The notes under the pieces were generated by a model. The model was not told the origin of the DNA. It saw only the letters and a list, made by a program, of their open reading frames with translations, and searched no databases. A DNA stretch of 64,000 nt, taken from the IMG/VR virus record IMGVR_UViG_3300045988_055134, positions 1,364 to 65,363 of that record. One strand, given 5' to 3'. Below, piece by piece: positions 21,607 through 50,677 of the stretch (positions within the stretch are counted from its first letter, which is position 1; each line of letters begins with the position of its first letter). Made by a program: the position numbers and the translations under genes. Source of the DNA: a virus.

Positions 21607-21618
21607 AGGAGAATATAA

Positions 21619-22008: not shown

Positions 22009-22012
22009 AAAC

Positions 22013-22047
22013 ATGAGAGCCTTGTTCAAAGGCTCTCTTTTATTTTT
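22013..22047 (+). terminator. rho-independent terminator
   Basis: GAGAGCCTT/AAGGCTCTC followed by a T-run. Confidence 0.7.
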
Positions 22048-22048
22048 A

Positions 22049-22057
22049 TAAATAATT
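22049..22057 (+). promoter_or_regulatory. extended -10 element TGATATAAT
   Basis: Promoter family member. Confidence 0.5.
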
Positions 22058-22095
22058 ATGATATAATTAAAGAATAAGGAAAGGAGTTTTCCCCT

Positions 22096-22608: not shown

Positions 22609-22620
22609 GGAGAATATATT

Positions 22621-23433
22621 ATGCTTTCTGTTAAAACTTTCTCTTACCCCGGAATTTGGCTGCCAGTTATTCAGAGTCATTTTCCAGATGGGACTTTACG
22701 TTTGGAACCTCCGGAGTTGAGTAATACTTTTGCTTCCGCAATACGGTGGGACTATGAAAACGATGCAGAATTATTCTCGCTTATTTGTTTAAAGAACCAC
22801 TATTGCAATGATAATATCTCGCTTTATATGCCCTACTGTCCGCACGCCCGCATGGACAGAGTAAAGAGTTCTAATGATGTTTTTACTCTCAAGAGTTTTG
22901 CAGGCATTATCAACTCGCTTAATTTCTCTAAGGTAGTTGTCTATGATGCACACAGTAATGTAAGTCTAGCACTTATTGATCGTGTTGAAAATCGTGATAA
23001 CACTCCTTTTGTTGAACGTGCAATCAACAAAATCAGCGATCCAGATCTTGTTATGTATTATCCTGATGAGGGAGCAATGAAGAGATACTCTGAACAGTTT
23101 AATCGTCCTTATAGTTTCGGCATGAAGAAGCGAGATTGGGCGACTGGTAACATTAAAGGCATTGATATTATCAACAAGGAAGCTGTAAGAGGCAAGAATA
23201 TTCTTATTGTTGATGATATTTGTTCGCGCGGCGGCACCTTCTTCCATTCTGCTAAGGCACTTAAAGCTGAGGGTGCGAAGAATATTTATCTCTTTATCAC
23301 TCATTGCGAAACCACTATCATGGAAGGAGAGCTAATCAAGAGTGGACTGATTAAGCACATCTTTACGACCAACTCTCTTGCTAGTAATTTCCCAACTAAT
23401 CTCATCACTGTCGACCCTATTATTCTTTCATAA
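22621..23433 (+). CDS. ribose-phosphate pyrophosphokinase (Prs)-family enzyme; candidate ADPR-PP synthetase (Adps-like)
   Basis: PRPP-binding motif ILIVDDICSRGGT and overall Prs-like layout. Confidence 0.7.
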   Translation: MLSVKTFSYPGIWLPVIQSHFPDGTLRLEPPELSNTFASAIRWDYENDAELFSLICLKNHYCNDNISLYMPYCPHARMDRVKSSNDVFTLKSFAGIINSLNFSKVVVYDAHSNVSLALIDRVENRDNTPFVERAINKISDPDLVMYYPDEGAMKRYSEQFNRPYSFGMKKRDWATGNIKGIDIINKEAVRGKNILIVDDICSRGGTFFHSAKALKAEGAKNIYLFITHCETTIMEGELIKSGLIKHIFTTNSLASNFPTNLITVDPIILS

Positions 23434-23448
23434 AGGAGTTTTGCATAA

Positions 23449-25173
23449 ATGTTTAATCCTCTGTTAATGATTGATTTCTATAAGAGCACTCACCATGAGC
23501 AGTATCCCGCGGGATTAACTAAGATGGTTAGTTACTATACTCCTCGTATGAGTAGGCTGCAGGGAGTTGATAAAGTTACTCTCTTTGGTCTGCAAGCCTT
23601 TATTAAAGAATATCTTATTGCAGGCTTCAACGATAGTTTCTTTAATCGCTCGGAGGATGAGGTAGTGACCGAGTATGAACGTGTGCTCAATGCCACGCTC
23701 GGTAAAGGTGCTTTCCAGTCTGATAAGATTAGAGAACTGCATCGACTCGGTTATTTGCCGCTTGAAATCTCCGCTGTCCCGGAAGGTACTAGAACTGCGA
23801 TTGGAGTTCCACAGATTGAGATCACTAATACCCATCCAAACTTTGTTTGGCTTGTAAATACCATTGAAACTCTGCTGTCTGCAACTATGTGGCATACGCA
23901 GGTATCCGCGGAAGTCGGCTATCGGTATCGTCAGATTGTGCAGCAGTATCACGATATTAGTTGTGATGATGATGTTTCTGTCGCTCGACTGCTTGGTGAT
24001 TTCTCTATGCGCGGTCAGCAGTCTGCAGAATCCGCGATTAAGAGTTCTGCGGGTTGGTGTCTTTCTTTCTTGAATACTGCTACTGTACCCGCAATTATGT
24101 GGCTTGAGAAGAACTATAATTGTGATTGTGCTACTGAGCCTGTTGCTTATGGCGCAATCTCTACAGAGCACAGTGTTATGTGTTCTAATTACGCGGTTGA
24201 TGGTGATGAGATCACTCATATCCGCAGACTTCTAACAGAGATTTATCCTCACCACAATTTCTCTATGGTATCTGATAGTTATGACTATTGGAGACTCGTA
24301 GATAAGATCCTTCCGCAGTTGAAAGACGAAATTATGGCGCATGATGGTTGTCTTTCTATTCGTGGTGACAGCGGCGATCCTGTGGAGATTATCGCAGGAA
24401 AAGAAATCTTCTATCTCGACGAGAAGGAATGGAAGAACCTAAAAGATGACCCCAGCGAATTCGTTGCTGAGTTCTTTGAACGAGACTTAAAGGAGGACAC
24501 TCAGCAGATTTTCTCTTACAATGGAGAGTATGCTCTTGCTGACATCACAGTCGAATGGACTAATGAGCGTGGGGCTTGGACTGATTGCAAATATTGGTTC
24601 ATTGAAGGCTATAACGTCAAACTGACTGAAAACTATGAGCTTACTTCCGAAGATAAAGGAACCGTCTGGCGCCTGTGGGATATTTTCGGTGGCACCATCA
24701 ATAGCAAGGGTTATAAGGTTCTTGATCCCCACATTAAAGCTATCTATGGTGATAGTATTACTCCTCAGCGTTGCGCTCGTATTTATCATCGCCTTGTGAA
24801 TAATGGATTTGCCATTAACAACACTTCACTTGGCGTGGGTTCGTTCTCGTTCATGTGTCTTGAGGAAGATGGTAAGTTTAATCCTTATACGAGAGATACT
24901 TTCGGCATTGCGGTAAAAGCTACTTACGCAGAAGATGCAAATGGCAAGCCTATTATGATCTATAAGCAGCCTAAAGCGCTTAGCTGGAAGAAGTCTCAAA
25001 AGGGTTGCTGTCGAGTTTGTCTTGATGGTCAGAGTTATGAAGATGAGCTGACTTGGAATGAACACCTTGGTGAAGACAACCTGCTTCAACCCATTTTCCG
25101 TAATGGCACTATGATTAAGGAGGATACATTGCATGATATTAGAGCAAGACTCTACCGAGAAGGTTTTATGTGA
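23449..25173 (+). CDS. nicotinamide phosphoribosyltransferase family (NAMPT/NadV/Namat-like)
   Basis: N-terminus NPLLMIDFYKSTHHEQYP resembles NAMPT. Confidence 0.8.
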   Translation: MFNPLLMIDFYKSTHHEQYPAGLTKMVSYYTPRMSRLQGVDKVTLFGLQAFIKEYLIAGFNDSFFNRSEDEVVTEYERVLNATLGKGAFQSDKIRELHRLGYLPLEISAVPEGTRTAIGVPQIEITNTHPNFVWLVNTIETLLSATMWHTQVSAEVGYRYRQIVQQYHDISCDDDVSVARLLGDFSMRGQQSAESAIKSSAGWCLSFLNTATVPAIMWLEKNYNCDCATEPVAYGAISTEHSVMCSNYAVDGDEITHIRRLLTEIYPHHNFSMVSDSYDYWRLVDKILPQLKDEIMAHDGCLSIRGDSGDPVEIIAGKEIFYLDEKEWKNLKDDPSEFVAEFFERDLKEDTQQIFSYNGEYALADITVEWTNERGAWTDCKYWFIEGYNVKLTENYELTSEDKGTVWRLWDIFGGTINSKGYKVLDPHIKAIYGDSITPQRCARIYHRLVNNGFAINNTSLGVGSFSFMCLEEDGKFNPYTRDTFGIAVKATYAEDANGKPIMIYKQPKALSWKKSQKGCCRVCLDGQSYEDELTWNEHLGEDNLLQPIFRNGTMIKEDTLHDIRARLYREGFM

Positions 25174-25594
25174 TCCATATATCTACACTCATAATGCCGC
25201 TGAGAGACTATACAATGAATATAAGAAGTATGGCAGTATAATCATAGCATTTGACTTTGATTATACTGTCCATAATTTCAAAGATGAACAATGGCGCTAT
25301 GATGGTGTAATTAACTTGCTGCGGGCATGGCAACCATATGCCAAGCTCGTTGTATTTACAGCTTCCGCGGAAGAGCGTTATCCATATATTGAAAAATATT
25401 TACGCGATAATGATATTCCATTTGGCTATATCAATGAAGATATTCTTCCACCAGAAAAGCATACCCCAGCGCGAAAAATTTATTACAATATTTTGCTCGA
25501 TGATCGCGCTGGGCTTGGTAATGCGTTCGCAATATTGAGAGAAGTATACAATAGACTTGAAGCAGAAGGAGAACTTAAAACATGGAGAAAGTAA
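25133..25594 (+). CDS. HAD-superfamily phosphatase/nucleotidase-like
   Basis: DxDxT motif FDFDYTV; LDDR. Confidence 0.5.
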   Translation: MILEQDSTEKVLCDPYIYTHNAAERLYNEYKKYGSIIIAFDFDYTVHNFKDEQWRYDGVINLLRAWQPYAKLVVFTASAEERYPYIEKYLRDNDIPFGYINEDILPPEKHTPARKIYYNILLDDRAGLGNAFAILREVYNRLEAEGELKTWRK

Positions 25595-26316
25595 TTCCTA
25601 AGATTTTAGATTGGACTAAGAACTATTTTGTGCAGAATGGCGCAGATTGCAAGGCAATCATCGGTATTTCTGGCGGTAAAGATAGCACTGTAACTGCGGC
25701 GCTTCTCGTTAAAGCGCTCGGAAAAGACAGGGTAATTGGTGTAAAGATGCCGCAGGGCAATCAGCATGACATCGACATTGCCAATAAAGTAATTGATTAT
25801 CTCGGTATTCGGAGTTACGAAATCAATATTGGCGATGTCTGTGAATCCTTATATCATGCTATTGATGAGGGGTATGATTTTGATAGTACGGTTAAAAACA
25901 ATCCCCAAGTTACTTCTAACTCTCCTGCCCGCGTCCGCATGACAGTGCTTTATGCTATTGCTGCGCTTGAACATGGTAGAGTAGCAAATACCTGCAACAA
26001 GAGCGAGGATTTTATTGGTTACTCTACTAAGTTTGGCGACTCCGCAGGTGATTTTTCTCTTCTGTCGAACCTTACAGTAAAGGAAGTTCTTGCTATTGGT
26101 AGAGAACTGGGCTTGCCGGAAGAGTTTATTAGCAAAGCACCGGAAGATGGTCTTAGTGGAAAAACTGACGAAGATAATCTTGGTTTTACCTACAAAGAGC
26201 TAGATGATTTTCTTGTATTTGGCAATGTACCTGACTACGACACCTTTGCCAATATTATGGAACGTCACCACCGTAATCTCCATAAGGTAGAACCGATGCC
26301 TACTTTTCCGTGGTAA
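25582..26316 (+). CDS. nadE: NH3-dependent NAD+ synthetase
   Basis: PP-loop GISGGKDST. Confidence 0.8.
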   Translation: MEKVIPKILDWTKNYFVQNGADCKAIIGISGGKDSTVTAALLVKALGKDRVIGVKMPQGNQHDIDIANKVIDYLGIRSYEINIGDVCESLYHAIDEGYDFDSTVKNNPQVTSNSPARVRMTVLYAIAALEHGRVANTCNKSEDFIGYSTKFGDSAGDFSLLSNLTVKEVLAIGRELGLPEEFISKAPEDGLSGKTDEDNLGFTYKELDDFLVFGNVPDYDTFANIMERHHRNLHKVEPMPTFPW

Positions 26317-26325
26317 ACATAGATT

Positions 26326-26356
26326 TTAAGGGAGCTTAAAGCTCCCTTTATTTTTT
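26326..26356 (+). terminator. rho-independent terminator
   Basis: AAGGGAGCTT/AAGCTCCCTT followed by a T-run. Confidence 0.7.
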
Positions 26357-26485
26357 ATAAAATATATGTTATTATATATACATAAAATAAAGAAGAATGA
26401 AAAGCAATAGCTGTTATATCTTATTTGATTTAGATTATCCGTTTATTGCAGATAATGCGATTGATTTAACTAAGGAGGTTTTGTA

Positions 26486-27394
26486 ATGATCCCTGGACTC
26501 TATAAGATCTTTGACCACTGGCACGCTGAAGGCACGGTGTATATCTACTCTGATCCCCACTTCAATGATGAAGAGATTGTAGCAGGTGTGCCGGAACGAC
26601 CCTCCGCAGAAGAACAGGTTAAACTTATCAATAGTAAAGTTGGTAAGAAGGATACGCTCATTATTCTTGGAGATTGCGGCGATCCAGCTATGTGCGCCAA
26701 ACTGCGTGGTTACAAGGTACTTATTATGGGAAACCATGACGCCGGTCGCAGTAACTATGAGCGCAAAAAGATTTCTCGTAAGTTTCCCAAAGAAGTCTTT
26801 CAGAAATCTGAGGCTCTTGATGAAATGAAACGCGTCTATCCCGGTTGTCAGTATTTTATTACCGAAGGATATGACTTCCACTCTCCCTTTGAGTATTGGG
26901 AAGTCTTTGCGGACAATAATCTCTTTGACGAGATCTATGAAGGGCCTCTCATGATTGGTGAGAAACTTATTCTATCGCATGAACCGCTTCCTATGATGCC
27001 TTGGGTATTCAACATTCATGGTCATATCCATGATCGTTGTCACAAAGATGATGACAGACATCTGAATGTTTGCTCTGATGTAATTAACTACACGCCAGTC
27101 AATCTGAACAGGTTAATGAAGAGAGGATTAACGGCAAAAATCCAATCTGTGCATAGACAGACCATTGATGTAGCTACGAAAAGAGCGAGAAAAAGAAAAC
27201 TGAAGAACAAAGAATGTTATGATTGTAAACATTTTTACCGTGAATGGTTCCGCGGCCATGCTGCTTGTAGATGTCATAAGCATGGTTCTTTAGATTGCGA
27301 CCAGCCTAAGGAACATAGACCTGATACCGCTGCGAAACATTGCAAAGATTACTGCTACGAAAAGGGGCATCAAAAACAGAAATGTTATTTTTAA
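26486..27394 (+). CDS. calcineurin-like metallophosphoesterase with C-terminal Cys-rich tail
   Basis: DPHFND...GDCGD...GNHD motifs. Confidence 0.7.
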   Translation: MIPGLYKIFDHWHAEGTVYIYSDPHFNDEEIVAGVPERPSAEEQVKLINSKVGKKDTLIILGDCGDPAMCAKLRGYKVLIMGNHDAGRSNYERKKISRKFPKEVFQKSEALDEMKRVYPGCQYFITEGYDFHSPFEYWEVFADNNLFDEIYEGPLMIGEKLILSHEPLPMMPWVFNIHGHIHDRCHKDDDRHLNVCSDVINYTPVNLNRLMKRGLTAKIQSVHRQTIDVATKRARKRKLKNKECYDCKHFYREWFRGHAACRCHKHGSLDCDQPKEHRPDTAAKHCKDYCYEKGHQKQKCYF

Positions 27395-27567
27395 TGCTTT
27401 TAGCTATGCTGTTTATTAGCATATTCTTAATCGTTGGAGTCGGCTCTCGACTTGCCATTTGGGGAGGACTTATTATAGGTTCGTGGGCGCTTATGATCTC
27501 TATTGTCTATTTTATTTATTTTATCGTGAGGAGTATAATCGGATGTTTGATGATTTTCTGTCTGTAA
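27382..27567 (+). CDS. small 2-TM membrane peptide
   Basis: Hydrophobic ORF. Confidence 0.4.
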   Translation: MLFLMLLAMLFISIFLIVGVGSRLAIWGGLIIGSWALMISIVYFIYFIVRSIIGCLMIFCL

Positions 27568-27812
27568 TTGGCGCGTTAGTAAGTATCGTTTTCCTGATTG
27601 TAATTAAGCCATTCGTATATTTTTGGTTCGCTTACCTTGGTGGTTGGATTGCTTCAATCACGATTGGTAATATTCTCGCTACTGGTTTGAATACTATGTT
27701 CAATGTAGCATGGTTCACTAAGGATATGATCCCGCTGTGTGCAGGTACTCTTGGTTGGATCGGTGGCTTCTTTAAGAATGATACCTCTATTTTCGGAAAG
27801 GATAAAGACTAA
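27543..27812 (+). CDS. membrane protein
   Basis: GAGGAG RBS. Confidence 0.45.
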   Translation: MFDDFLSVIGALVSIVFLIVIKPFVYFWFAYLGGWIASITIGNILATGLNTMFNVAWFTKDMIPLCAGTLGWIGGFFKNDTSIFGKDKD

Positions 27813-27962
27813 TGAAGCTACGTAAGCTATCTAAGACTCTCGAAAACATGGAACGAGATCTCGCCAAAATGGACGATGAAACTTTCTTCGCTCTTCTTGG
27901 GACAAGTATTGAGGAACTTAAACAAAAAGCGAAAGAAATGGAAGGAGCAAACAAAGAATGAC
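27813..27962 (+). CDS. 49-aa hypothetical protein
   Basis: Short ORF coupled to the next gene. Confidence 0.35.
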
Positions 27963-28800
27963 TGATAAACTTGGTATGCGCATGAAAGAGTTTTATGAAA
28001 CGGTTCCTAAGGCTAGATTGATGCGCAGAACTCCTGTCGCAATCCGCATTGATGGCAAGGTTTTCCACACTTTCACTCGTGGTTTTAACAAGCCTTTCGA
28101 TCATATTCTTGGAACTGCTATACAAGAAACTATGAGATACCTGTGTCAAAATATTCAAGGTTGTGTACTTGGATATACCCAGAGTGATGAAATTACTCTG
28201 ATCCTTGTAGATTATAAACGACTAAATAGCTCCGCATGGTTTGATTATGAGGTTCAGAAAATGTGCTCTGTCGCCGCATCTATGGCGACTATGGCTTTCA
28301 ATAAAGCCTTCCATAAGGCAGTTGAAGACGCAGATTTCTTCTGGAAAACTAGTCTAACTCCTCAAAGCGTTGAAATCCAGCAAGGGCATCAAAAGTACAT
28401 GGAAATTCTGCGGGCCGCCAGCTCTAAAGGCGCCATGTTTGATGCACGTTGCTTCAATATCCCGAGAGAAGAAGTTACTAACCTTATCTATTGGCGCCAG
28501 TTAGACGCAACCCGCAATTCTATCCAGATGGCAGGCCAGGCTAATTTCTCTCATAAAGAACTTCAAGGTAAATCTTGTATCCAAATCAAGAAAATGCTCT
28601 CTGATATTGGTATTGAATGGGACGATTATCCCATTTCTTATCAGCGCGGCTCTTGTTGTATTAAGACTTATATCCAAGATGTCGCTCCCGATGGAATTGA
28701 GCATATTCGTTCTGAATGGATTATTGATAAAAACATCCCGCTGTTTATCGGAGAGGGACGTGAATATATCGAATCTCTAATCCAGAGCGAGGAGGAATAA
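27958..28800 (+). CDS. Thg1-like protein (tRNA-His guanylyltransferase family, 3'-5' nucleotide addition)
   Basis: VAIRIDGKVFHTFTRGFNKPFD...YTQSDEITL signature. Confidence 0.75.
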   Translation: MTDKLGMRMKEFYETVPKARLMRRTPVAIRIDGKVFHTFTRGFNKPFDHILGTAIQETMRYLCQNIQGCVLGYTQSDEITLILVDYKRLNSSAWFDYEVQKMCSVAASMATMAFNKAFHKAVEDADFFWKTSLTPQSVEIQQGHQKYMEILRAASSKGAMFDARCFNIPREEVTNLIYWRQLDATRNSIQMAGQANFSHKELQGKSCIQIKKMLSDIGIEWDDYPISYQRGSCCIKTYIQDVAPDGIEHIRSEWIIDKNIPLFIGEGREYIESLIQSEEE

Positions 28801-35061: not shown

Positions 35062-35805
35062 ATGGAAATAAAATTTATTCCCGCTCATTCATCTAATTAT
35101 TATAGTGGGCGTAGTGGTAACTCTATTCTATATATTGTAGTCCACTATACTGCGAATAACGGAGATACAGCAGCCGGTAATGGCAACTATTTCTCTGGAG
35201 CTAATCGCCAGGCTTCCGCGCACTACTTTGTAGATGAAAACAGCATAGTTCAATCTGTGAAGGATTCAGATGGTGCTTGGCATTGCGGCGGCTCTTTAGA
35301 GTCTTCACATCACCCATATCGAAATATCTGCACAAACCGAAATTCTATTGGTGTCGAGATGTGCAGCGATATTGTAAATGGTAAATATGTCATTACCGAA
35401 GCAACAGTAAATCGTACAGTTGAACTAGTAAAGATGTTAATGAAAAAGTATAATATTGCGGCAGACCATGTTATTAGACATTATGACGTAACTGGTAAGC
35501 GTTGCCCAGAACCTTGGGTACGCGATGAAAGCAAGTGGATTGATTTCAAAAAGCGTCTGACCGCGACTGCACCAGCTAAATAGGAGGAAGAAATTGTGAC
35601 ACAGGATCAATTTAATAAAATGATGGATACTTACCTTGCGCAAAGAGATGTAAAGCCTATGACTTGGGAACAAGAGGCAATGAAATGGGCACAGGAGCAA
35701 GGTCTAATTAAAGGTAACGAAAAGGGTCAATTGATGCCAAAAAGCTTCCTGACTCGTGGCGAATTCGTTACTGTATTGAAGCGCTATGCTGAAAAGCAAA
35801 ACTAA
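35062..35805 (+). CDS. endolysin: N-acetylmuramoyl-L-alanine amidase (Amidase_2/PGRP) joined through an in-frame TAG (35581) to a C-terminal SLH-like wall-binding segment
   Basis: YIVVHYTANNG...AHYFVD...HCGG motifs; ORFs 35062-35583 and 35596-35805 are contiguous in frame across the TAG. Confidence 0.7.
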
Positions 35806-35878
35806 ATCAACTTAGCAAAAAAAGCATAGACAAAAATCTAAGAAAGAGTTTTCTAAATAGTTAATTTGCGATATTCGC

Positions 35879-36133
35879 TTGCTGTTATGGGTCGTAACTC
35901 TTTCTGGTATTTTGTTAGCGTTTTATTGCGTGCACTTAGGATATCTGGGATCTTTACCTTGGATTAGTGCGTTAGTTGGTTTACCTTGGTCAGCTCATGG
36001 GATAGTTTGCTCATTCTATCTTAATATGAGCAAGTCAGATCATAAAAAGGGTGGGATTACCTACGATCTAGCTATGTATAATGCATAGTAGTAGATGACA
36101 TACCCTTCTGATGAAGATTCAACGATCTAATAA
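35879..36133 (+). CDS. holin-like 2-TM protein whose frame runs through TAGTAGTAG (36086-36094) to a TAA at 36131
   Basis: Hydrophobic small ORF downstream of the endolysin. Confidence 0.4.
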
Positions 36134-41143: not shown

Positions 41144-42292
41144 ATGAGTTTTGATAAAGAAAAGATACATGAATTGTATCCCGAAGCAGAGGAGCTAATG
41201 ATTGAGCCGATGCTTATTTGGAAGCTCCCAGCAGGCAAGGAATCTATGCTTTCTGAAGTATGCTCTAATGGAGAATACTTTCTTGAAGAGAAGATCGATG
41301 GAGCCTTTTATCAGTTTGTAAAAACCGAAAATCATTGTTATCTTTTTGGTCGCACGGTAAGTAAATTATCTGGTATTCTTACAGAAAAAAGTGACAATGT
41401 ACCTCACCTAAAAGAAGCATTGAACTGCCTTCCCGCGGGAACAATTCTCATTGGAGAAATTTATGTTCCCGGTGGTACATCGAAAGATACTGTAAGTATT
41501 ATGGGTTGTCTTCCAACTCTTGCTATCAAGAGACAGAAAGACGCTCCAATTCATTACTATGTGCATGACATTATTGCATATGATAGCGTCAATCTTATTA
41601 ACTCACCTGCGGATTTGCGCTATAAAATTCTTGCAGCAATCTGGGAGAAACATAATCTTAACCAGTATAGTTTCTTGAGACTTGCTACTCGTGTTGACGA
41701 AGATATGGAAGCTGAAATCTCTCGTATCTTAAAATCTGGTGGTGAGGGCGTAGTTCTAAAGAAGAAAGACTATCCATATAGTCCTGGTAAAAGACCCGCT
41801 TGGTCTACTATTAAAGTTAAACAGATGGATTCTATTGACCTAATTTGTACGGGTTTTTGTGATGCTACTAAAGAATATACTGGTAAGGAGCTAGAAACCT
41901 GGCCCTATTGGGAAGAGCGCGGTGAGCAAAATCAAGATGGTGAATATACTTGGCTATTAAGCGAAGGTCAGTATTATGAGGATTATATTCATAATCCTCA
42001 TATTTATAGACCAGTAACCAAACCTTATTTTCTTGGCTGGAAAACCGCAATTAGAATTGGAGCATACAATGATAAAGGTGAACTTATTGACTTAGGTACA
42101 GTTAGCTCTGGTTTAACTGACGATAACAAAAGAGAGATGACTGAACATCCAGAATTGTGGCTTGATAAGGTTGTAGCTCTTGATTGTATGCAAGTTGACA
42201 AGAAAGAACACACTCTGCGGCATCCTGTTTTCAAGTGTAAGAGAGATGATAAGGATGCGAAAGATTGCGTAATATCAGAAATTTTTTGTTGA
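41144..42292 (+). CDS. ATP-dependent DNA ligase
   Basis: Motif I EEKIDGA (KxDG). Confidence 0.75.
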   Translation: MSFDKEKIHELYPEAEELMIEPMLIWKLPAGKESMLSEVCSNGEYFLEEKIDGAFYQFVKTENHCYLFGRTVSKLSGILTEKSDNVPHLKEALNCLPAGTILIGEIYVPGGTSKDTVSIMGCLPTLAIKRQKDAPIHYYVHDIIAYDSVNLINSPADLRYKILAAIWEKHNLNQYSFLRLATRVDEDMEAEISRILKSGGEGVVLKKKDYPYSPGKRPAWSTIKVKQMDSIDLICTGFCDATKEYTGKELETWPYWEERGEQNQDGEYTWLLSEGQYYEDYIHNPHIYRPVTKPYFLGWKTAIRIGAYNDKGELIDLGTVSSGLTDDNKREMTEHPELWLDKVVALDCMQVDKKEHTLRHPVFKCKRDDKDAKDCVISEIFC

Positions 42293-42308
42293 CTTAAAAA
42301 ATATTTTC

Positions 42309-42317
42309 TGATATAAT
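42309..42317 (+). promoter_or_regulatory. extended -10 element TGATATAAT
   Basis: Promoter family member. Confidence 0.5.
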
Positions 42318-42363
42318 ATATAATGTAATCAGGAAGCAATAGAAAAGTTAAAGGACAGATTAT

Positions 42364-42564
42364 ATGACCCGAAAACAGATGAAGAAGTTCGCGGACGAAA
42401 TCTACAAATGCGAACTTATTCACCAAGATGAAAATGCTTCGAAAGAAGCAAAATCTCGTGCTGAAGATAGAATCATATCTCTTACTAATCAAATTATGGC
42501 TCTATCAGACGGGATAAATGCTTTACTGGAAATTGATGCAATGATAGCATCGAAAAATAAATAA
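42364..42564 (+). CDS. hypothetical protein
   Basis: ORF of 66 aa. Confidence 0.45.
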   Translation: MTRKQMKKFADEIYKCELIHQDENASKEAKSRAEDRIISLTNQIMALSDGINALLEIDAMIASKNK

Positions 42565-42589
42565 ATGTATTAAGAGAGGAAAAATTATT

Positions 42590-42853
42590 ATGGCTATGAA
42601 GGAAAACACTCGTAAGGTTTTTGATTATCTAAAGGACAATGCTGGCAAGGATCTGACCGCTGCTGACATCGCTGAGGTTCTTGGTCTTGAGAAGCGCCAG
42701 GTTGATGGCATCTTTACATCTGCTCTACAGCGCAAGGATCTTGGCGTTCGTGAGCCGGCTGAGGTTGAGCTTGCCGATGGCTCCCATCAGAAGGTTAAGT
42801 ATCTCCGCTTGACCGACAAGGGCATGGCTTTCGATCCTGATGCACAGGAGTAA
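42590..42853 (+). CDS. hypothetical protein (GC-rich)
   Basis: GAGAGGAAAAA RBS. Confidence 0.5.
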   Translation: MAMKENTRKVFDYLKDNAGKDLTAADIAEVLGLEKRQVDGIFTSALQRKDLGVREPAEVELADGSHQKVKYLRLTDKGMAFDPDAQE

Positions 42854-42861
42854 TAAATTGA

Positions 42862-42898
42862 GAGTCGGTAAGAGAATATCTCTTACCGACTTCTTTTA
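42862..42898 (+). terminator. rho-independent terminator
   Basis: AGTCGGTAAGAGA/TCTCTTACCGACT followed by a T-run. Confidence 0.75.
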
Positions 42899-42901
42899 AT
42901 T

Positions 42902-43813
42902 ATGATATATTTACTATTAGGTTTAATTATTGCTGCTTTGGCAGGATATGCTGTCCACCTCCGCAATGATCGGCTTAAAGTAGTATCAATAAATAGAGAG
43001 CGATAGGCAGAAAATGAGCGCATTGAATCAGATATTGAACGACATAATCTAGATTTAATGTAGCTAAAAGCTAACATAGATTAGTAGAATGAAGTTATCA
43101 ACTCTTTAATTGATACAGCTACTAAAATGCGGGAAAACGCAGAGCAGCAAGCTAAAGAAAGCGCAAAGACAATATATGCGCGAGAAACTGAAAAGTTAGA
43201 AAAAGTCTATCAAGAGTTCGAACAGCAAAAGGAAAAAGAACTCGCGGAAATCGCCTAGTAGGTTCTAGTAGAACAAGACAAACTGGAGCAGTTAGAAGCT
43301 AAATAGTTAGCATATATCCAAGCTCAATAGCGTCAAGAAGAGAGTGCCGCAAATTAGGACTATTATAGACTAACTATTGATGATTTAAGTGTTAATGATA
43401 TAAGTCTGTTGCGAGAATTATAGACTCGTTTCTTCAAGAAAGAAGCTATTGATAAGTTAATTTGGGAAACTTATTATAAGCCATCTTATGATGCACTTAT
43501 GAGTAAGTTATTTCCAAAAGCCTCTAAAGTCTGTGGTATCTATAAGATTACCAATTTAATCACTGGCTAGGCCTATATTGGTCAATCTGTTGATATTAAA
43601 GAACGTTTTAGGCAACATATTAAAACTTCTTTAGCTTACGGTCCAGCAACTAATAAGCTATATCAGGCAATGCAAAAATCCGGACAGCATAATTTCATGT
43701 TCGAAGTTTTGGAAGAAGTGCCTCGAGCTTAGTTGAATGAGCGAGAGACTTATTGGATTGAGTTCTATAAAACAAAAGATTATGGTCTAAATAGTACCAG
43801 AGGAGGCTCCTAA
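42902..43813 (+). CDS. 303-codon ORF carrying about 12 in-frame TAG codons: N-terminal TM helix, Gln/Glu coiled coil, C-terminal GIY-YIG nuclease domain (possible internal start at 43499)
   Basis: Continuous frame from ATG 42902 to TAA 43811 if TAG is sense; GIYKITNLITG-TAG-AYIGQS...YWIEFYK motif. Confidence 0.55.
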
Positions 43814-44118
43814 TGTTTAAGGTAATTACAAATAGAGGAGCTGGTAAAACAGCTACCTTAATGCGATATGCTAATTAGCTTGCTAAAGAAAATCCCGACA
43901 AGCAAGTTTTATTTGTTGGTAATGCCCCTTCTTCTCAGGTAAAACGATTTATTACAGAAGTGGGACCTCTTCCATCAAACTTGGGATTTATTAGCTATTC
44001 ATATTATATGGATAACTTTAGAGGCAAGAGATGCGTCGCCGTTGTAGATGATTTAGATTATTGGTTAGCTAGTAATTTTAATGTAGTAGGCTATTCTAAT
44101 ACAGTGGGAGAATCATAA
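43813..44118 (+). CDS. 101-aa protein with P-loop-like TNRGAGKT and one in-frame TAG
   Basis: TAATG coupling; frame open to TAA 44116. Confidence 0.45.
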
Positions 44119-44756
44119 TGCAAGTAAATAATGTAAAAATTTATGACCTTGAAGAGAGCTTGGTCGCGGCAGGCTATCCAATGCGGACGACCGTGGAAAT
44201 GCGTGAAGCAACAGAGTAGGATGTAAAGCGTGGTACTAGACTATCAAAAGCAGCATCGGGTGGCAATGGCGCACATAATCAGTTTATGACTGGTATTAGA
44301 GTAGCTTTTGATTTAACCTGCTCTAATAAAATGTGGGTAGAGGCTGAGAGATACCGCTTCTTGGAGTTTGTAAGTTCTCAAAGCACGATGCACCGCATTA
44401 CCAAATTTGATGTGCGAGAGCAGTATAATGAATATGTTGATCCTCGTGTTATTGATATTATGGAAGAAAAAATCGCTCGTTATAACGCACTTGATCAAGC
44501 AAGAGCGCAGGCTGTAAAGGATAATAAGGTTGCTCTTGTTGTCAAATTAACCGAACAGATGAAACAATTATATCTTGAAATTCTTTATACAAATCCCGCG
44601 GGATTTGAGCTTACTGCGCGCATGACAACGAATTATCGTTGCCTAAAGAATATTTATGTTCAGCGTCACGACCATCGTCTCCCCGAATGGAGAGAGTTTT
44701 GCAAGTGGATTGAAACTCTTCCGTACGCACAAGAATTGATTCTTTGTGAAGCATGA
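44118..44756 (+). CDS. 212-aa hypothetical protein with one in-frame TAG (44217)
   Basis: ATG 44118 is in frame with ORF 44286-44756. Confidence 0.5.
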
Positions 44757-44769
44757 TAGACAACGCTAG

Positions 44770-44798
44770 TTGACATAACTTCTTTTTTATTGTATTAT
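44770..44798 (+). promoter_or_regulatory. promoter: TTGACA, 17-nt spacer, TG-TATTAT
   Basis: Consensus -35 plus extended -10. Confidence 0.6.
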
Positions 44799-44828
44799 AT
44801 ATACATAAAAAATAAAGGAAATGAATAA

Positions 44829-45209
44829 ATGAATAATAAGTATAAGCGTTTTATTGAATATTTCGATTGGCTCGTGCAGAATTGTAAAGAGCCAGTAAAT
44901 CTTCCTGACGAGGTTCAGGATGTCTATAATCTGTTGCGTGAGCAGCAAAATATGGAGAAGCCAATGTTCACAGAGAGTGGACTGGCAATTTTAGAATACT
45001 TACAGTCCTGTGATGCTACAAGTTAGAAAGCAAAAGATATTGCAGATGGAATGATTATTTCATCTCGTAAGATCTCTGGAGCTATTCGAAAACTCGTAAC
45101 CGATGGGTTTGTAGATAAATATGGCCAGAATCCTGTCATTTATAGCTTGACGGAAAAGGGTAAAAATTTTGATATTGACGGCTATAAAAACAATTTGAAC
45201 GAGAACTAA
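44829..45209 (+). CDS. winged-helix (MarR/PadR-like) DNA-binding protein with in-frame TAG (45024)
   Basis: The frame continues past the TAG into the wHTH segment ...ISGAIRKLVTDGFV... Confidence 0.5.
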
Positions 45210-45222
45210 AAGGAGAATAATA

Positions 45223-46176
45223 ATGTCCAAGAAAATGAAAAATGAATCTCATGTTGAAGGTTATGTTTACGAGCACAAGCTGGAAATGAAGAAGAGTGGT
45301 CCAAACTCTAAGAATCCGGGTACTGAGTTTATTAGCGGTATTCTGAGTGTCGCAACAGACGATGAACTGCTCAATGTTGTGCAGACTCATTTCACTTATG
45401 TTACTGCGGTAACTGCCAAGGGTAAGCCCAACAACACTTTCAATGTTCTTCAGTCTATTATCAGTGGTAAGATTGGTTCTGTTATGGAACATGGTAAGGA
45501 AAATGCGGGTAAGGTTCGTATTGATACTGCCATTGGTCTGAATGAGTGGTATGATAAGGATGACAAGCTCGTCTCTATTCGCCGCAATGAGGGTGGTTTT
45601 GTTCACCAGGTACAGGAGCTGTGTGAGCCAAAGAGCCGCGCAACTTTCAATACTGATATGGTAATTACCAATGTTCGTCGCATTGAGGCAGATGAAGAGC
45701 GCAATACTCCGGAAAAGGTAATTGTTAAGGGTTGTGTATTTGATTTCCGCAATGCACTGCTCCCTGTTGAGTTCAGTGTTTACGAGCCTCATGCTCCGGC
45801 AAAGGCACTTGATTACTTTGAAAATCTCGGTGCTTCTAGTAGTAATCCGGTATTTACTCGTGTTCAGGGTATTCAGGTATCTCGAACTATTGTTCGTAAG
45901 ATTGAGGAGGAAAATGCTTTTGGTGAAGCAATCGTCAAGGAAAGCCGTTCTTCTCAGCGTGATCTGGTAATCAACTGGGCACAGCCAGAAATTTATGAGT
46001 GGGATAGCGAAGATACTCTGCTCGCATCCGAGTTTGCTGAAATGATTTCTAATCGTGAGGTTCACCTCGCTGAAATCAAGCGACGTCAGGACGAGTATCA
46101 GGCTTCTCGCGGTAACGCATTGACCGGTGGCGCGACTAAGACTGCAACTCCTGCGAAGGGCGACTACAACTTCTAA
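45223..46176 (+). CDS. putative ssDNA-binding protein
   Basis: Position ahead of the replication genes; GC-rich and probably highly expressed; weak call. Confidence 0.4.
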   Translation: MSKKMKNESHVEGYVYEHKLEMKKSGPNSKNPGTEFISGILSVATDDELLNVVQTHFTYVTAVTAKGKPNNTFNVLQSIISGKIGSVMEHGKENAGKVRIDTAIGLNEWYDKDDKLVSIRRNEGGFVHQVQELCEPKSRATFNTDMVITNVRRIEADEERNTPEKVIVKGCVFDFRNALLPVEFSVYEPHAPAKALDYFENLGASSSNPVFTRVQGIQVSRTIVRKIEEENAFGEAIVKESRSSQRDLVINWAQPEIYEWDSEDTLLASEFAEMISNREVHLAEIKRRQDEYQASRGNALTGGATKTATPAKGDYNF

Positions 46177-46251
46177 TTGAATAAGGGGTAGTTAATCTAC
46201 CCCTTTTAATTCCTCATTAAATAAAAGAATATATAAAGGAGAAAATCATTT

Positions 46252-49409: not shown

Positions 49410-49571
49410 ATGAAGATCGGTTATCAGATGAATAAGAAGCAGTTTGACGCACTTGTTGCAACTCGTAAGGGCGCAGACGCAAAGAAGAATCCGTATCAGT
49501 ATGTCATGGAGATTATCAACACATCTTATGGTCTGCGTGGCACTGTAACTCGTCTTTCTATTGTAGACTGA
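49410..49571 (+). CDS. 53-aa hypothetical protein
   Basis: AAGGAGAG RBS. Confidence 0.45.
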   Translation: MKIGYQMNKKQFDALVATRKGADAKKNPYQYVMEIINTSYGLRGTVTRLSIVD

Positions 49572-50677
49572 TGTCGCGTTACTATGATAAAGACGAGCTA
49601 AAGGAGAAACTTGAACTTGAGCAGATATATGATTTAATTGAAGCCTGGGGAGGTGAGCCTGAATATACAGATGGCGGGCTTATCTCCCAAACTATCTGTC
49701 ATAATCTGCCGGGAGAGGGTTCTCGCAAGCTCTATTATTACACAAATACAAGATTGTTCAGATGTTACACTGGGTGTGTAGATCCTACCTTCGATATTTT
49801 TGATTTGTGTATTAAGGTAATGAAAAATCAAAAGGACTTGAAGTGGGAGATGTATGATGCAATGGATTATATTGCATCATACTTTGGCTTTGACGGCGTA
49901 GAACAACGAGATGACGAACAGCCAGAACTGAAAGATTGGGAAGTGTTTAAGCGACATAATTTGCGGATGGCAGAGAAAAAATCTACCAATCAGCTAAAAG
50001 AATATGATCCAATTATTCTTAGTCGTTTCGCCTATCCAAGAATAGAAAGTTGGGAACGAGAAGGAATTAGCGATGAGGTGAGTAAGAAGAATCTCATTGG
50101 CTACTATCCTGGCGGTGAGCAGATCACAATCCCGCATTTCGACATTAATAATCGTTTAATTGGCATCAGAGGTCGTTCATTAGCAGAAGATGAAGCTGAA
50201 CGATATGGCAAGTATAGACCTCTATTGATTGGCAAGAAGCTGTATAATCACCCTCTTAGTATGAATCTATATAATCTCAACAATAGCAAAGATAATATTG
50301 CTAAGATGCACGCAGCAGTTATCTTCGAGTCTGAGAAGTCTTGCCTTATGTATCAGTCTTATTATGGTCATGAAAATGATATTTCTGTGGCAATTTGCGG
50401 AAGTAGCTTATCAAGCTATCAAGTTGATTTATTAAAGCAGGTTGGAGCGAGAGATATTGTAATTGCTCTTGATCGACAATTCCAAGAAATTGGAGATGAT
50501 GAGTTTAAGCGATTAAAAGCTAAATTAATTCATTTCTACAACAAGTATAATAACTCTATTAGAGTAACCGCTATATTCGATAAAGCTATGATTTCTCCTT
50601 ATAAGGCAAGTCCGATAGATGAAGGTCCGGAAGTCTTTGAGAAGCTATTAGCTTCGCGAATTATTCCTAAAAACTAA
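49571..50677 (+). CDS. DnaG-like DNA primase (CHC2 zinc finger plus Toprim)
   Basis: CHNLPGEG...CYTGC zinc finger; FESEKS; DIVIALDRQ. Confidence 0.75.
   Translation: MSRYYDKDELKEKLELEQIYDLIEAWGGEPEYTDGGLISQTICHNLPGEGSRKLYYYTNTRLFRCYTGCVDPTFDIFDLCIKVMKNQKDLKWEMYDAMDYIASYFGFDGVEQRDDEQPELKDWEVFKRHNLRMAEKKSTNQLKEYDPIILSRFAYPRIESWEREGISDEVSKKNLIGYYPGGEQITIPHFDINNRLIGIRGRSLAEDEAERYGKYRPLLIGKKLYNHPLSMNLYNLNNSKDNIAKMHAAVIFESEKSCLMYQSYYGHENDISVAICGSSLSSYQVDLLKQVGARDIVIALDRQFQEIGDDEFKRLKAKLIHFYNKYNNSIRVTAIFDKAMISPYKASPIDEGPEVFEKLLASRIIPKN

What the first reader, a model, noticed from the sequence alone, without database searches (positions are those of the whole stretch)
42902..44756. Block of heavily TAG-loaded genes: a TM coiled-coil ORF reading through into a GIY-YIG domain
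From ATG 42902 the frame stays open for 303 codons only if about 12 TAGs (4% of codons) are sense. It encodes an N-terminal TM helix, a Gln/Glu coiled coil and a complete GIY-YIG catalytic domain (GIYKITNLITG-x-AYIGQS...YWIEFYK), followed by two more TAG-containing genes. This may be a freestanding GIY-YIG endonuclease (internal ATG 43499) fused by the absence of stops to an upstream spanin-like or membrane protein, or a real membrane-anchored nuclease. The TAG density is far above that of the rest of the window (0-3 per gene).
Basis: seen in the sequence. Interest (0 to 1): 0.7.

Follow-up and report, generated by a model that had tools for sequence, protein, structure and literature searches.

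The report
TAG-loaded membrane-anchored phage GIY-YIG nuclease
In a gut phage that reads the stop codon TAG as glutamine, this is one real conserved gene for a membrane-anchored DNA-cutting enzyme, and across dozens of related phages it is the most TAG-rich gene in its neighbourhood, which probably keeps a dangerous enzyme from being made until the phage's own suppressor tRNA is present.

Summary
ORF 42902-43813 has 303 codons with 12 in-frame TAGs and ends in TAA.

It is one gene, not a fusion artefact. Hundreds of full-length homologues exist, and the junction between the coiled coil and the GIY-YIG domain is the best conserved part. Relatives that use the standard code (L045, L220-222, L224-225) encode the same architecture with no TAG.

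TAG means glutamine here. TAG and CAA/CAG swap at invariant Gln columns. A Gln-like tRNA(CUA) lies about 1.6 kb upstream of window position 1 in a 96%-identical relative.

The protein has four parts:
- an N-terminal transmembrane (TM) helix;
- a helix of about 130 residues;
- a small conserved helical module;
- a C-terminal I-TevI-type GIY-YIG domain with all catalytic residues invariant and no DNA-binding domain.

The new result is comparative. In about 35 diverged loci the orthologue carries 6-25 TAGs, which is 40-69% of its Gln positions, against 2-17% in neighbouring genes. TAG positions turn over between lineages.

In this clade a conserved terminator hairpin abuts the start codon and no Shine-Dalgarno sequence is visible.

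Best reading: production of a probably toxic, membrane-tethered nuclease is gated by suppressor tRNA. Its biological role (host DNA breakdown or exclusion of other phages) is inferred. This is a new variant of known phenomena, of moderate interest.

The parts
42289..42317 (+). Promoter-like site (TTGACT, 17 nt, TG-TATAAT; 11 of 12 matches) ahead of the small HTH gene
   Evidence: Consensus scan. This is a pattern match only; the total number of matches in the region is not above that of shuffles.
42590..42853 (+). Small winged-helix/HTH gene (87 aa, 0 TAG). It is the conserved upstream neighbour of the nuclease gene.
   Evidence: Same position in L001-L006.
42862..42901 (+). Intrinsic-terminator hairpin (14 bp stem, 3-nt loop, 42862-42892) plus a T-run that ends directly at the start codon. 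No Shine-Dalgarno sequence lies between it and ATG 42902.
   Evidence: Fold energy is -22.7 kcal/mol, z = -8.1 against shuffles. A hairpin is kept in 11 lineages with different stem sequences. It is absent in Phass-1 and L046-L048, which have a Shine-Dalgarno sequence instead.
42902..43813 (+). Single gene for a 303-aa TM, coiled-coil and GIY-YIG protein, read in code 15. It has 12 TAG = Gln codons at nucleotides 43004, 43061, 43082, 43085, 43256, 43259, 43304, 43328, 43355, 43421, 43568 and 43730.
42902..42958 (+). N-terminal transmembrane helix (codons 1-19), followed by a basic flank (HLRNDRLK). The predicted topology is N-out, C-in.
   Evidence: Hydropathy 2.06 over 19 residues. A hydrophobic N-terminus followed by K/R is conserved in orthologues. 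The topology is inferred from the positive-inside rule.
42959..43348 (+). Long helix / coiled-coil stalk (codons 20-149), rich in Gln, Glu and Lys. It holds 8 of the 12 TAGs.
   Evidence: AlphaFold2 helix over residues 2-149, pLDDT about 77-93. There are weak coiled-coil-type hits to ATP synthase subunit b.
43349..43531 (+). Conserved helical module (codons 150-210: DYYRL...NDI.LLRELQ.RF.KKE.IDKLIWE.YYKP.YD.L), with no known family. It contains the non-conserved internal ATG 43499.
   Evidence: It holds many invariant columns of the family. Helices 161-174 and 180-203. No Pfam hit in any of 37 members.
43532..43777 (+). GIY-YIG catalytic domain (codons 211-292). Y214, Y225, R235, H239, E282 and N297 are invariant and correspond to I-TevI Y6, Y17, R27, H31, E75 and N90. 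No DNA-binding domain follows.
43813..44118 (+). Small P-loop protein (101 aa; Walker A GAGKT, Walker B VVDD; 1 TAG). Its start overlaps the nuclease stop (TAATG) and it has its own GGAGG.
   Evidence: Conserved downstream neighbour, 54% identical in L004 and 32% in L001.
44118..44756 (+). 212-aa protein of unknown function (phrog_6721; 1 TAG). Its start overlaps the previous stop (TAATG). It occupies the slot where relatives carry ThyX or ThyA+DHFR, but it is not detectably related to ThyX.
44770..44798 (+). Promoter-like site (TTGACA, 17 nt, TATTAT; 11 of 12 matches) after the three-gene block
   Evidence: pattern match only.
44829..45209 (+). Winged-helix (MarR/TrmB-like) gene, 126 aa, 1 TAG. 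It looks like a paralogue of the HTH gene at 42590.
   Evidence: HTH_27, E = 1e-4. The similarity to 42590-42853 was seen by eye.
35786..36130 (+). Context: the only other ORF in the window with a comparable TAG density (5 TAGs in 114 codons). It is a two-TM, holin-like ORF that overlaps the end of the amidase gene 35062-35805.

Best explanation
**What it is (shown).** Positions 42902-43813 are one gene of a phage that decodes TAG as glutamine (genetic code 15). The product is a 303-aa protein with these parts:
- an N-terminal membrane anchor;
- a helical stalk of about 130 residues, probably a dimerising coiled coil;
- a small conserved helical module of unknown family;
- a C-terminal I-TevI-type GIY-YIG nuclease domain with an intact active site and no DNA-binding domain.

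It belongs to a large, unnamed family. In phages of gut Clostridia, including the 'code 15 clade' phage Phass-1, the family sits at a fixed place in the replication and nucleotide-metabolism module.

**Why it is full of TAG (inferred).** The load is a gene-specific, evolutionarily maintained property. It makes synthesis of the nuclease domain depend steeply on the phage's suppressor tRNA-Gln(CUA), because all 12 TAGs, including two TAG-TAG pairs, must be read through. In this clade a terminator hairpin abuts the start codon and no Shine-Dalgarno sequence is visible. Together these features would keep the enzyme from being made early or by accident, and keep its level low.

**What it does (inferred, weakest step).** The positive-inside rule places the nuclease on the cytoplasmic face of the membrane. 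From there it most likely cuts DNA non-specifically or with low specificity. The target would be either the host chromosome, which would feed the adjacent thymidylate and ligase functions, or DNA entering from other phages.
For: **Single gene**
- 857 homologues were found, hundreds of them full length at about 303 aa and down to 55% identity.
- A profile search finds 734 clusters (50% identity) at E < 1e-30, nearly all 290-380 aa.
- The junction region is the most conserved part.
- Standard-code relatives L045, L220, L221, L222, L224 and L225 encode the whole architecture with 0 TAG.

**TAG = Gln**
- TAG alternates with CAA/CAG at invariant Gln columns. Examples are K-Q-L at codon 135, REL-Q at codon 174, and YIG-Q-S, which is TAG in L001 and L004 but CAA in the window.
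- Gln is the residue most enriched opposite TAG, 2.9-fold.
- A 91-nt tRNA(CUA) with a Gln-type acceptor (U1, G73) lies about 1.6 kb upstream of window position 1 in the collinear, 92-96% identical contig L186. It is also present in L187 and L190-L194.

**Active nuclease**
- Y214, Y225, R235, H239, E282 and N297 are invariant in 37 sequences and align to the catalytic residues of I-TevI.
- The predicted fold matches 1ln0.

**Gene-specific TAG load**
- In the window, Fisher p = 4e-8.
- In about 35 loci the orthologue has 6-25 TAGs, 40-69% of its Gln positions. It ranks first or second in TAG density within +/-10 kb, while neighbours are at 2-17%.
- In L004, 13 TAGs lie in this gene against 2 in 3,316 neighbouring codons.
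- In the complete Phass-1 genome the orthologue is eighth of 133 ORFs, and second on its strand.
- TAG positions are mostly different between lineages, with 0-7 shared. The load is therefore maintained rather than merely inherited.

**Expression restraint**
- A conserved terminator hairpin lies directly 5' of the ATG, with compensatory changes between lineages, and no Shine-Dalgarno sequence is present.

**Fixed synteny**
- All 27 ligase-bearing relatives carry the gene just downstream of the ligase.

**Precedent**
- Borges et al. report gene families that are preferentially recoded. These include a group I intron endonuclease and a TM protein of the lysis cassette. They interpret this as blocking premature expression.
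Against: - No expression, proteomic or biochemical data exist for this phage, so the timing of suppressor-tRNA expression is unknown. The tRNA sits in a tRNA array among auxiliary genes, so it may be made early. In that case gating would amount only to a short delay or a dosage limit.
- A high TAG share could also arise if the gene merely tolerates inefficient decoding, without TAG being selected for.
- TAG use is equal before and within the nuclease domain, 47% in each. There is therefore no positional design beyond an early first TAG at codons 23-49.
- Phass-1 and L046-L048 have a normal Shine-Dalgarno sequence and no hairpin, so that layer of restraint is specific to this clade.
- The suppressor tRNA was not found inside the window itself.
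- The membrane topology, dimerisation, substrate and biological role are all inferred.
Confidence: 0.62

Rival explanations
1. Passive accumulation. The gene is real and TAG means Gln, but the TAG load has no regulatory function. The protein is needed in tiny amounts, so selection against the poorly decoded TAG codon is weak. In an AT-rich genome, CAG-to-TAG transitions then drift to a high equilibrium.
For: - TAG share is uniform along the gene, 47% before and 47% within the GIY-YIG domain.
- TAG positions turn over freely.
- The genome is about 39% GC.
- Other small ORFs also have high TAG shares.
Against: - The two translationally overlapping genes just downstream, with no promoter-like site in between, have only 1 TAG each (1 of 3 and 1 of 11 Gln positions).
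- The enrichment recurs in at least 8 diverged lineages at 10- to 70-fold over neighbours.
- Weakly recoded lineages keep their only TAG right after the TM helix: L041 at codon 34 and L046 at codon 25.
Confidence: 0.25
2. Selfish element. The gene is a free-standing GIY-YIG homing endonuclease, as in the Seg and I-TevI group. It has been kept quiet by in-frame stops, like the recoded group I intron endonuclease of Agate phages.
For: - The best family matches are homing and group I intron endonucleases: TIGR01453 at E = 4.5e-21 and PHROGs 7168, 5123 and 314.
- There is a precedent.
- Extra GIY-YIG ORFs occur near the gene in L218, L223 and L224.
Against: - Only the catalytic part of the model matches (positions 3-86 of 215).
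- The domain is C-terminal and no DNA-binding domain follows it.
- The gene is present at the same locus in 27 of 27 relatives, down to 39% ligase identity, which is not the sporadic distribution of a mobile gene.
- The N-terminal TM helix, stalk and middle module are conserved with it.
Confidence: 0.07
3. Lysis accessory. The TM and coiled-coil part acts like a holin, spanin or lysis regulator. The gene is TAG-rich because it belongs to the late lysis programme, and the nuclease is a cargo that destroys host DNA at lysis.
For: - Lysis genes and TM proteins are the classic preferentially recoded families.
- The holin-like ORF 35786-36130 in this window is equally TAG-dense.
- There are weak resemblances to ATP synthase b-type TM and coiled-coil proteins.
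Against: - The gene is 7 kb from the amidase and holin, between the ligase and thymidylate-synthase-slot genes, in all relatives.
- The inferred hosts are Gram-positive Clostridia, which need no spanin.
- No lipoprotein partner was seen.
Confidence: 0.05
4. Artefact. Two separate genes, or a decaying pseudogene, only look fused because TAG stops were ignored, or because of sequencing or assembly errors.
For: - Under the standard code the frame breaks 12 times.
- GenBank annotates the Phass-1 orthologue as two short CDSs.
- Database clusters contain many truncated gene calls.
Against: - The same TAG-containing ORF is found in dozens of independent assemblies.
- Purifying selection acts across the whole length.
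- Standard-code relatives have an uninterrupted ORF.
- A tRNA(CUA) is present in the clade.
Confidence: 0.01

Closest known systems
I-TevI and the group I intron / Seg-type GIY-YIG homing endonucleases (TIGR01453, PF01541; PDB 1ln0, 1mk0)
   Same: The catalytic fold and all catalytic residues are the same. These are the best sequence and structure matches.
   Different: - The domain order is reversed: the nuclease is at the C-terminus.
- There is no linker or DNA-binding domain.
- The protein has an N-terminal membrane anchor, a long stalk and a novel middle module.
- The genomic position is fixed rather than sporadic.
Gene families preferentially written in the recoded stop codon in alternatively coded phages (Borges et al., bioRxiv 10.1101/2021.08.26.457843, read)
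   Same: The excess of the reassigned stop codon over the synonymous sense codons is gene-specific. It is interpreted as a block on premature translation. Their list includes a group I intron endonuclease and a TM protein annotated as holin, spanin or 'ATP synthase B chain'.
   Different: - Different phage clade (Firmicutes phages related to Phass-1, recoding TAG to Gln).
- Different protein family (TM, coiled coil and GIY-YIG in one polypeptide).
- Different location (the replication and nucleotide module, not the lysis cassette or an intron).
Phage Phass-1 (OQ749652; PMC10607447), 'Caudoviricetes code 15 clade'
   Same: - It carries a 38-41% identical orthologue with the same architecture and 8 TAGs.
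- It has tRNA-Sup(CUA) genes.
- It shares NAD-salvage and nucleotide-metabolism genes.
   Different: - In Phass-1 the gene has its own extended -10 element and a Shine-Dalgarno sequence, and no terminator hairpin.
- Two suppressor tRNAs lie 400 nt downstream of it.
- The record splits the gene into two hypothetical CDSs, and the paper does not discuss it (0 mentions of GIY-YIG).
T4 endonuclease II (DenA). Comparison from my own knowledge, not tested here.
   Same: It is a small GIY-YIG nuclease without a separate DNA-binding domain. It starts host DNA breakdown and is encoded next to nucleotide-precursor genes (nrd, td, frd).
   Different: - DenA is soluble, is an early gene and is not recoded.
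- T4 protects its own DNA by hydroxymethylcytosine. No protection mechanism is known here.
Single-gene GIY-YIG anti-phage defence proteins (Uzume UzuA, PD-T4-3, PD-lambda-1)
   Same: UzuA also carries its GIY-YIG domain at the C-terminus, at model positions 181-277 of 278. All are thought to degrade nucleic acid.
   Different: - The match is confined to the nuclease domain (E = 2e-6).
- Those proteins are host- or prophage-encoded defence genes.
- No similarity was seen in the N-terminal 200 residues.
RNase Y of Firmicutes. Architectural analogy from my own knowledge.
   Same: It has an N-terminal membrane anchor, then a coiled-coil region, then a C-terminal nuclease, with the active site in the cytoplasm at the membrane.
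   Different: The catalytic domain is unrelated (KH + HD), the substrate is RNA, and it is a cellular housekeeping enzyme.

Membership tests
GIY-YIG nuclease superfamily (PF01541) | GIY and YIG motifs about 10 residues apart on a three-stranded sheet | tested here: met
   GIY at residues 212-214 and YIG at 225-227. Pfam E = 1.2e-7 and score 32.3, above the cut-off of 22.6. Strands 212-218, 224-229 and 265-272 in the model.
GIY-YIG nuclease superfamily (PF01541) | Catalytic Arg, His, Glu and Asn (I-TevI R27, H31, E75, N90) present | tested here: met
   R235, H239, E282 and N297 align to them and are invariant in 37 family members.
GIY-YIG nuclease superfamily (PF01541) | Fold superposes on a solved GIY-YIG domain | tested here: met
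   Foldseek hit to 1ln0 at E = 1.6e-4, target TM-score 0.74-0.76, rmsd 2.3-2.5 A over 82-84 residues. UvrC 1yd6 also matches. This rests on a predicted model.
GIY-YIG nuclease superfamily (PF01541) | Metal-dependent DNA cleavage | not testable with these tools
   Needs biochemistry.
GIY-YIG homing endonucleases (I-TevI/Seg, TIGR01453) | N-terminal catalytic domain joined to a C-terminal DNA-binding region | tested here: not met
   The catalytic domain is at residues 211-292 of 303 and nothing follows it. Only model positions 3-86 of 215 match. No DNA-binding Pfam domain occurs in any of 37 members.
GIY-YIG homing endonucleases (I-TevI/Seg, TIGR01453) | Sporadic, mobile distribution among related genomes (presence/absence at a locus, or residence in an intron) | tested here: not met
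   The gene is present at the same position after the ligase and HTH genes in 27 of 27 relatives, down to 39% ligase identity.
Phages using genetic code 15 (TAG = Gln) | In-frame TAGs in conserved genes that align with Gln in homologues | tested here: met
   At invariant Gln columns only TAG, CAA and CAG occur.
Phages using genetic code 15 (TAG = Gln) | Phage-encoded suppressor tRNA with anticodon CUA | tested here: inconclusive
   None is found in the 64-kb window. One is present about 1.6 kb beyond the window's 5' end in the collinear, 92-96% identical contig L186, and in five further relatives.
Phages using genetic code 15 (TAG = Gln) | TAG no longer used to end genes | tested here: inconclusive
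   With TAG as sense, 82 ORFs end in TAA (64) or TGA (18), and most TAGs lie deep inside ORFs. A few lie within 3-11 codons of an ORF end, so dual use cannot be excluded.
Preferentially recoded gene families (in the sense of Borges et al.) | Significantly higher use of the reassigned stop than of synonymous codons, relative to the rest of the genome, recurring across the clade | tested here: met
   Window Fisher p = 4e-8. The gene ranks first or second in about 35 loci and eighth of 133 ORFs in complete Phass-1. Their exact family-wise Mann-Whitney test over complete genomes was not run.
Spanins / lysis-cassette TM proteins | Encoded in the lysis cassette of a phage of a host with an outer membrane | tested here: not met
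   The gene is 7 kb from the amidase and holin-like ORFs, inside the replication module. Related contigs are binned with Oscillospiraceae, Lachnospiraceae, Eubacterium and Clostridia.
Uzume (UzuA) defence protein | Full-length match to the UzuA model | tested here: not met
   The PADLOC hit at E = 2e-6 covers only model positions 181-277 of 278, which is the GIY-YIG part.

The most novel reading that the evidence does not exclude
The TAG load is an evolved high-order translational timer. A family of membrane-tethered, dimeric GIY-YIG nucleases acts as a host-takeover or superinfection-exclusion weapon of gut Clostridia phages. The enzyme is so dangerous to the phage's own replication that three layers were recruited to license it only after the phage has changed the cell's genetic code. 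The layers are a terminator at the start codon, the lack of a ribosome-binding site, and 6-25 reassigned stops. Without the suppressor, the 22-48-residue TM peptide ending before the first TAG may itself have a function.
Probability: 0.3. Interest if true: 0.7.

Novelty: new variant of a known kind. Interest (0 to 1): 0.5.

Why it matters
- **A compact experimental handle.** Stop-codon reassignment in phages has been proposed to time the expression of dangerous late genes, but the evidence is mostly correlative and centred on lysis cassettes. Here one gene outside the lysis and structural modules concentrates most of the reassigned codons of its neighbourhood, in many lineages. Its likely activity, DNA cleavage, is easy to score. 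Comparing the native gene with a TAG-to-CAG version, with and without the tRNA(CUA), would test the gating idea directly.
- **An undescribed architecture.** The work defines a large, unnamed protein family with a GIY-YIG architecture not described in the literature I could search: a membrane anchor, a stalk and a nuclease.
- **An annotation problem.** Standard-code gene calling shreds this gene. The Phass-1 record and many database clusters hold only fragments of it.

Tried and rejected
- **Nucleotide search of the GenBank phage collection** with 42000-46200 found nothing. Only the protein-level search reached Phass-1.
- **Cultured phages.** No cultured phage in that collection has the full architecture.
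P0001, 99% identical, was used instead.
- **The afdb50 fold library** was unavailable.
- **Suppressor tRNA.** It was not found in the window, around the gene in close relatives, downstream of the window end, or near ORF 1154 homologues. An exact tRNA-Thr pattern scan gave no hit. It was finally found upstream of the window start through ORF 630-950.
- **Odd tRNAs.** The two at 93-166 and 5392-5465 are not CUA suppressors.
- **Internal start at 43499.** Rejected: the Met is not conserved, there is no Shine-Dalgarno sequence, and the promoter-like match is at background frequency.
- **Third gene as ThyX.** Rejected: there is no BLAST similarity to the ThyX of L001, and no Pfam or PDB hit.
- **The P-loop protein** has no PDB relative by sequence.
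- **N-terminal 210 residues.** No Pfam family matches them in any of 37 members, so my remembered DUF4041/T5orf172 analogy found no support.
- **Positional gradient of TAGs along the gene.** None: 47% against 47%.
- **Source names for family members.** None exist.
Full report
**1. What the window is**

All long ORFs lie on the + strand and GC is about 39%. The window contains:
- a tRNA array at 93-11,504;
- RNA-repair and NAD-salvage genes: RNA ligase, PRPP synthetase, NAMPT, NadE and Thg1;
- an SPFH protein, PhoH and RNase H;
- an amidase followed by a small two-TM ORF;
- a replication module. In relatives this reads gyrB, gyrA, ATP-dependent ligase, small HTH, the gene of interest, small P-loop, ThyX or ThyA+DHFR, winged-helix protein, YorF, AAA_24, YorH, DnaB.

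This is a large phage of the kind recently described as the 'Caudoviricetes code 15 clade' around Phass-1. Related contigs of about 148 kb are binned with Oscillospiraceae, Eubacterium, Lachnospiraceae and other Clostridia.

**2.

- ORF 42902-43813 is 303 codons long with 12 in-frame TAGs, no in-frame TGA, and a terminal TAA. The other two frames are full of TAA and TGA.
- TAG supplies 12 of its 27 Gln-type codons, against 38 of 663 in the other 81 ORFs of the window (Fisher p = 4e-8).
- The only comparably TAG-dense ORF in the window is the holin-like 35786-36130, with 5 TAGs in 114 codons.
- The next three genes each carry one TAG. The genes on either side of this four-gene stretch carry none: RNase H through the small HTH gene upstream, and YorF through the 368-aa ORF 49571-50677 downstream.

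**3. It is one gene, and TAG is glutamine**

- A search with the TAG-to-Gln translation found 857 homologues. Hundreds are about 303 aa and align end to end, down to 55% identity.
- A profile search of 1.8 billion cluster representatives found 734 clusters at E < 1e-30, nearly all 290-380 aa. None carries a name.
- The most conserved stretch runs straight across the supposed fusion point: KQLAYIQAQQRQEE...DYYRL...NDI.LLRELQ.RF.KKE.IDKLIWE.YYKP.YD.L...K.CGIYKIT.
- The orthologous DNA in other assemblies also has in-frame TAGs, but at different places. At invariant Gln columns TAG simply alternates with CAA/CAG. For example, the Q of YIGQS is TAG in L001 and L004 and CAA here, while the Q of KQL is TAG here and CAA/CAG in L001.
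- Relatives with little or no recoding encode the same architecture as an uninterrupted ORF: L045, L220, L221, L222, L224 and L225 have 0 TAG, and L041 and L046 have 1.
No homologue has two proteins separated by TAA or TGA at the junction.
- The proposed internal start is not supported. Met200 is often Thr in orthologues, it lacks a Shine-Dalgarno sequence, and the promoter-like match upstream is at background frequency.

**4. The decoding machinery**

- The window has no tRNA(CUA).
- The near-identical contig L186 is collinear with the window, at 92-96% nucleotide identity. It extends the tRNA array upstream and carries a 91-nt tRNA(CUA) about 1.6 kb before window position 1. Five further relatives have it at the same place.
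- Its acceptor end (U1, G73) is Gln-like. Unusually, it has a long variable-arm hairpin.

**5. The protein**

- Residues 1-19 are a hydrophobic helix (mean hydropathy 2.06) followed by a basic flank. By the positive-inside rule the rest of the protein is cytoplasmic; this is inferred.
- AlphaFold2 (pLDDT 84) gives one helix over residues 2-149, two short helices at 161-174 and 180-203, and an alpha/beta GIY-YIG domain at 212-289.
- That domain matches the I-TevI catalytic domain by sequence and by fold.
- Y214, Y225, R235, H239, E282 and N297 correspond to I-TevI Y6, Y17, R27, H31, E75 and N90. All are invariant in 37 family members.
- Nothing follows the nuclease domain, and no member has any other Pfam domain.
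- The protein therefore has the chemistry of a homing endonuclease but not its architecture.
- It also lacks the population behaviour of a homing endonuclease. The gene is present at the same locus in 27 of 27 ligase-bearing relatives.

**6. The comparative result**

- In about 35 loci covering at least eight diverged lineages, the orthologue carries 6-25 TAGs. That is 40-69% of its Gln positions and up to 7.5% of all codons.
- It ranks first or second in TAG density within +/-10 kb. Neighbouring genes use TAG for 2-17% of Gln.
- In L004 the gene holds 13 TAGs, against 2 in 3,316 neighbouring codons.
- In the complete Phass-1 genome TAG is concentrated in the structural arm, but the orthologue on the other arm is eighth of 133 ORFs and second on its strand.
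- TAG positions are mostly not shared between lineages, with 0-7 in common. The load is therefore a maintained, gene-specific equilibrium and not an inherited relic.
- TAG share is the same in the stalk and in the nuclease domain, 47% each. The first TAG always falls at codons 23-49, just after the membrane helix. This includes the lineages that keep only one TAG.

**7. Expression context in this clade**

- A 14-bp hairpin plus T-run at 42862-42901 ends at the start codon, and no Shine-Dalgarno sequence is visible.
- Equivalent hairpins of about -20 kcal/mol (z from -5 to -12) occur at the same place in 11 lineages, with different stem sequences.
- Promoter-like sites lie before the upstream HTH gene and after the three-gene block. 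The block 42902-44756 therefore looks reachable only by terminator read-through; this is inferred from pattern matches.
- The three genes overlap stop to start (TAATG).
- Phass-1 and L046-L048 instead have an ordinary Shine-Dalgarno sequence.

**8. Interpretation**

- **Shown:** the region is a single conserved gene, TAG encodes Gln, the nuclease active site is intact, and the TAG enrichment is gene-specific and recurrent.
- **Inferred:**
  - The enrichment acts as a translational gate. Yield falls as the twelfth power of suppression efficiency. Combined with weak initiation and an upstream terminator, this keeps a potentially self-destructive nuclease off until the suppressor tRNA has changed the code.
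  - Borges et al. proposed the same logic for lysis genes and for a group I intron endonuclease in TGA-recoded phages. The idea is therefore not new, although this family and its location are.
- **Weakest step: the biological role.**
  - The position next to thymidylate-synthase-slot genes and the ligase, together with the lack of a specificity domain, recalls T4 endonuclease II (from my own knowledge). That suggests host-DNA breakdown.
  - A membrane-tethered nuclease could equally attack incoming DNA of competing phages.
- **Main rival:** passive drift of TAG in a gene needed only in trace amounts. The low TAG share of the two overlapping downstream genes and the recurrence of the enrichment across lineages argue against it, but it cannot be excluded without expression data or an explicit evolutionary model.

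**9. Verdict**

- It is a new variant of known things: code-15 recoding with gene-specific TAG bias, and the GIY-YIG superfamily.
- Its value lies in a clean comparative signal and in an uncharacterised but very widespread membrane-anchored nuclease family that standard annotation fragments.

Noticed in passing
window 5392-5465 (also L186 14395-14468, L187 15222-15295, L190 14852-14925, L191 15603-15676, L194 14048-14121): A tRNA-like gene with an 8-nt anticodon loop (GUUAAAAG; ARAGORN reports the four-base anticodon 'taaa'). It is conserved in several relatives, scores 37.9 bits with the Rfam tRNA model, and is not a CUA suppressor. It could be a quadruplet-decoding or otherwise non-canonical tRNA.
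   Followed up: partly
window 93-166 (L186 9239-9313): A second odd tRNA-like gene with a very AT-rich anticodon arm (6-bp stem with 6-nt loop, or 5-bp stem with 8-nt loop; ARAGORN reports anticodon 'tt'). It scores 33.9 bits with Rfam tRNA. Some relatives have a '(tgtt)' or '(aa)' variant instead.
   Followed up: partly
L186 7491-7581 (about 1.6 kb upstream of window position 1); L187, L190-L194; L007 8097-8187: The clade's suppressor tRNA(CUA) is 91 nt long. It has a Gln-type acceptor (U1, G73) but a long variable-arm hairpin, which is unusual for a tRNA-Gln. Phass-1 carries both a 75-nt and a 91-nt form.
   Followed up: partly
L187 10406-10751, L192 10406-10750, L194 10406-10750, L195 10494-10832: Relatives encode a tmRNA (tag peptide DNNYFDSHMAA or DNSYFENHLAA) inside the tRNA array. 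None is found in the window or in its closest relative L186. A phage tmRNA is notable in genomes whose in-frame TAGs would terminate translation early when unsuppressed.
   Followed up: no
window 35786-36130: A two-TM, holin-like ORF that overlaps the end of the amidase gene (35062-35805) has 5 TAGs in 114 codons. Three of them are consecutive, 11 codons before the end. That run could be a QQQ tract or a genuine TAG stop.
   Followed up: partly
window 1585-1658 and 11442-11504: Rfam finds two more tRNAs that ARAGORN missed: a GAU (Ile) tRNA with a mismatched acceptor stem, and a GUA (Tyr) tRNA matched only at model positions 9-63.
   Followed up: partly
window 42590-42853 and 44829-45209: Two small winged-helix/HTH genes with a similar sequence pattern flank the three-gene block. 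They may be paralogous regulators.
   Followed up: no
L007 6644-7624 (OQ749652.1 63005-63985, minus strand): The GenBank record of Phass-1 annotates the orthologue as two separate hypothetical CDSs (WIC39637 and WIC39636) and leaves the TAG-rich middle unannotated. Two tRNA-Sup(CUA) genes lie about 400 nt downstream.
   Followed up: yes
window 20192-28800: An auxiliary module is present: RNA ligase (20192), PRPP synthetase-like (22621), NAMPT (23449), NAD synthase (25582) and the tRNA-His guanylyltransferase Thg1 (27958). All are free of TAG.
   Followed up: partly
L106 10564-20335 (region just beyond the window's 3' end in a 99%-related contig): Several small + strand ORFs there carry 4-6 TAGs each (for example 6 in 159 codons and 5 in 249). 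A more heavily recoded region therefore seems to begin right after the window.
   Followed up: no
L223 7888-8766: In one standard-code relative the orthologue loses similarity inside the GIY-YIG domain and ends early. It is probably a frameshifted pseudogene or an assembly error.
   Followed up: no
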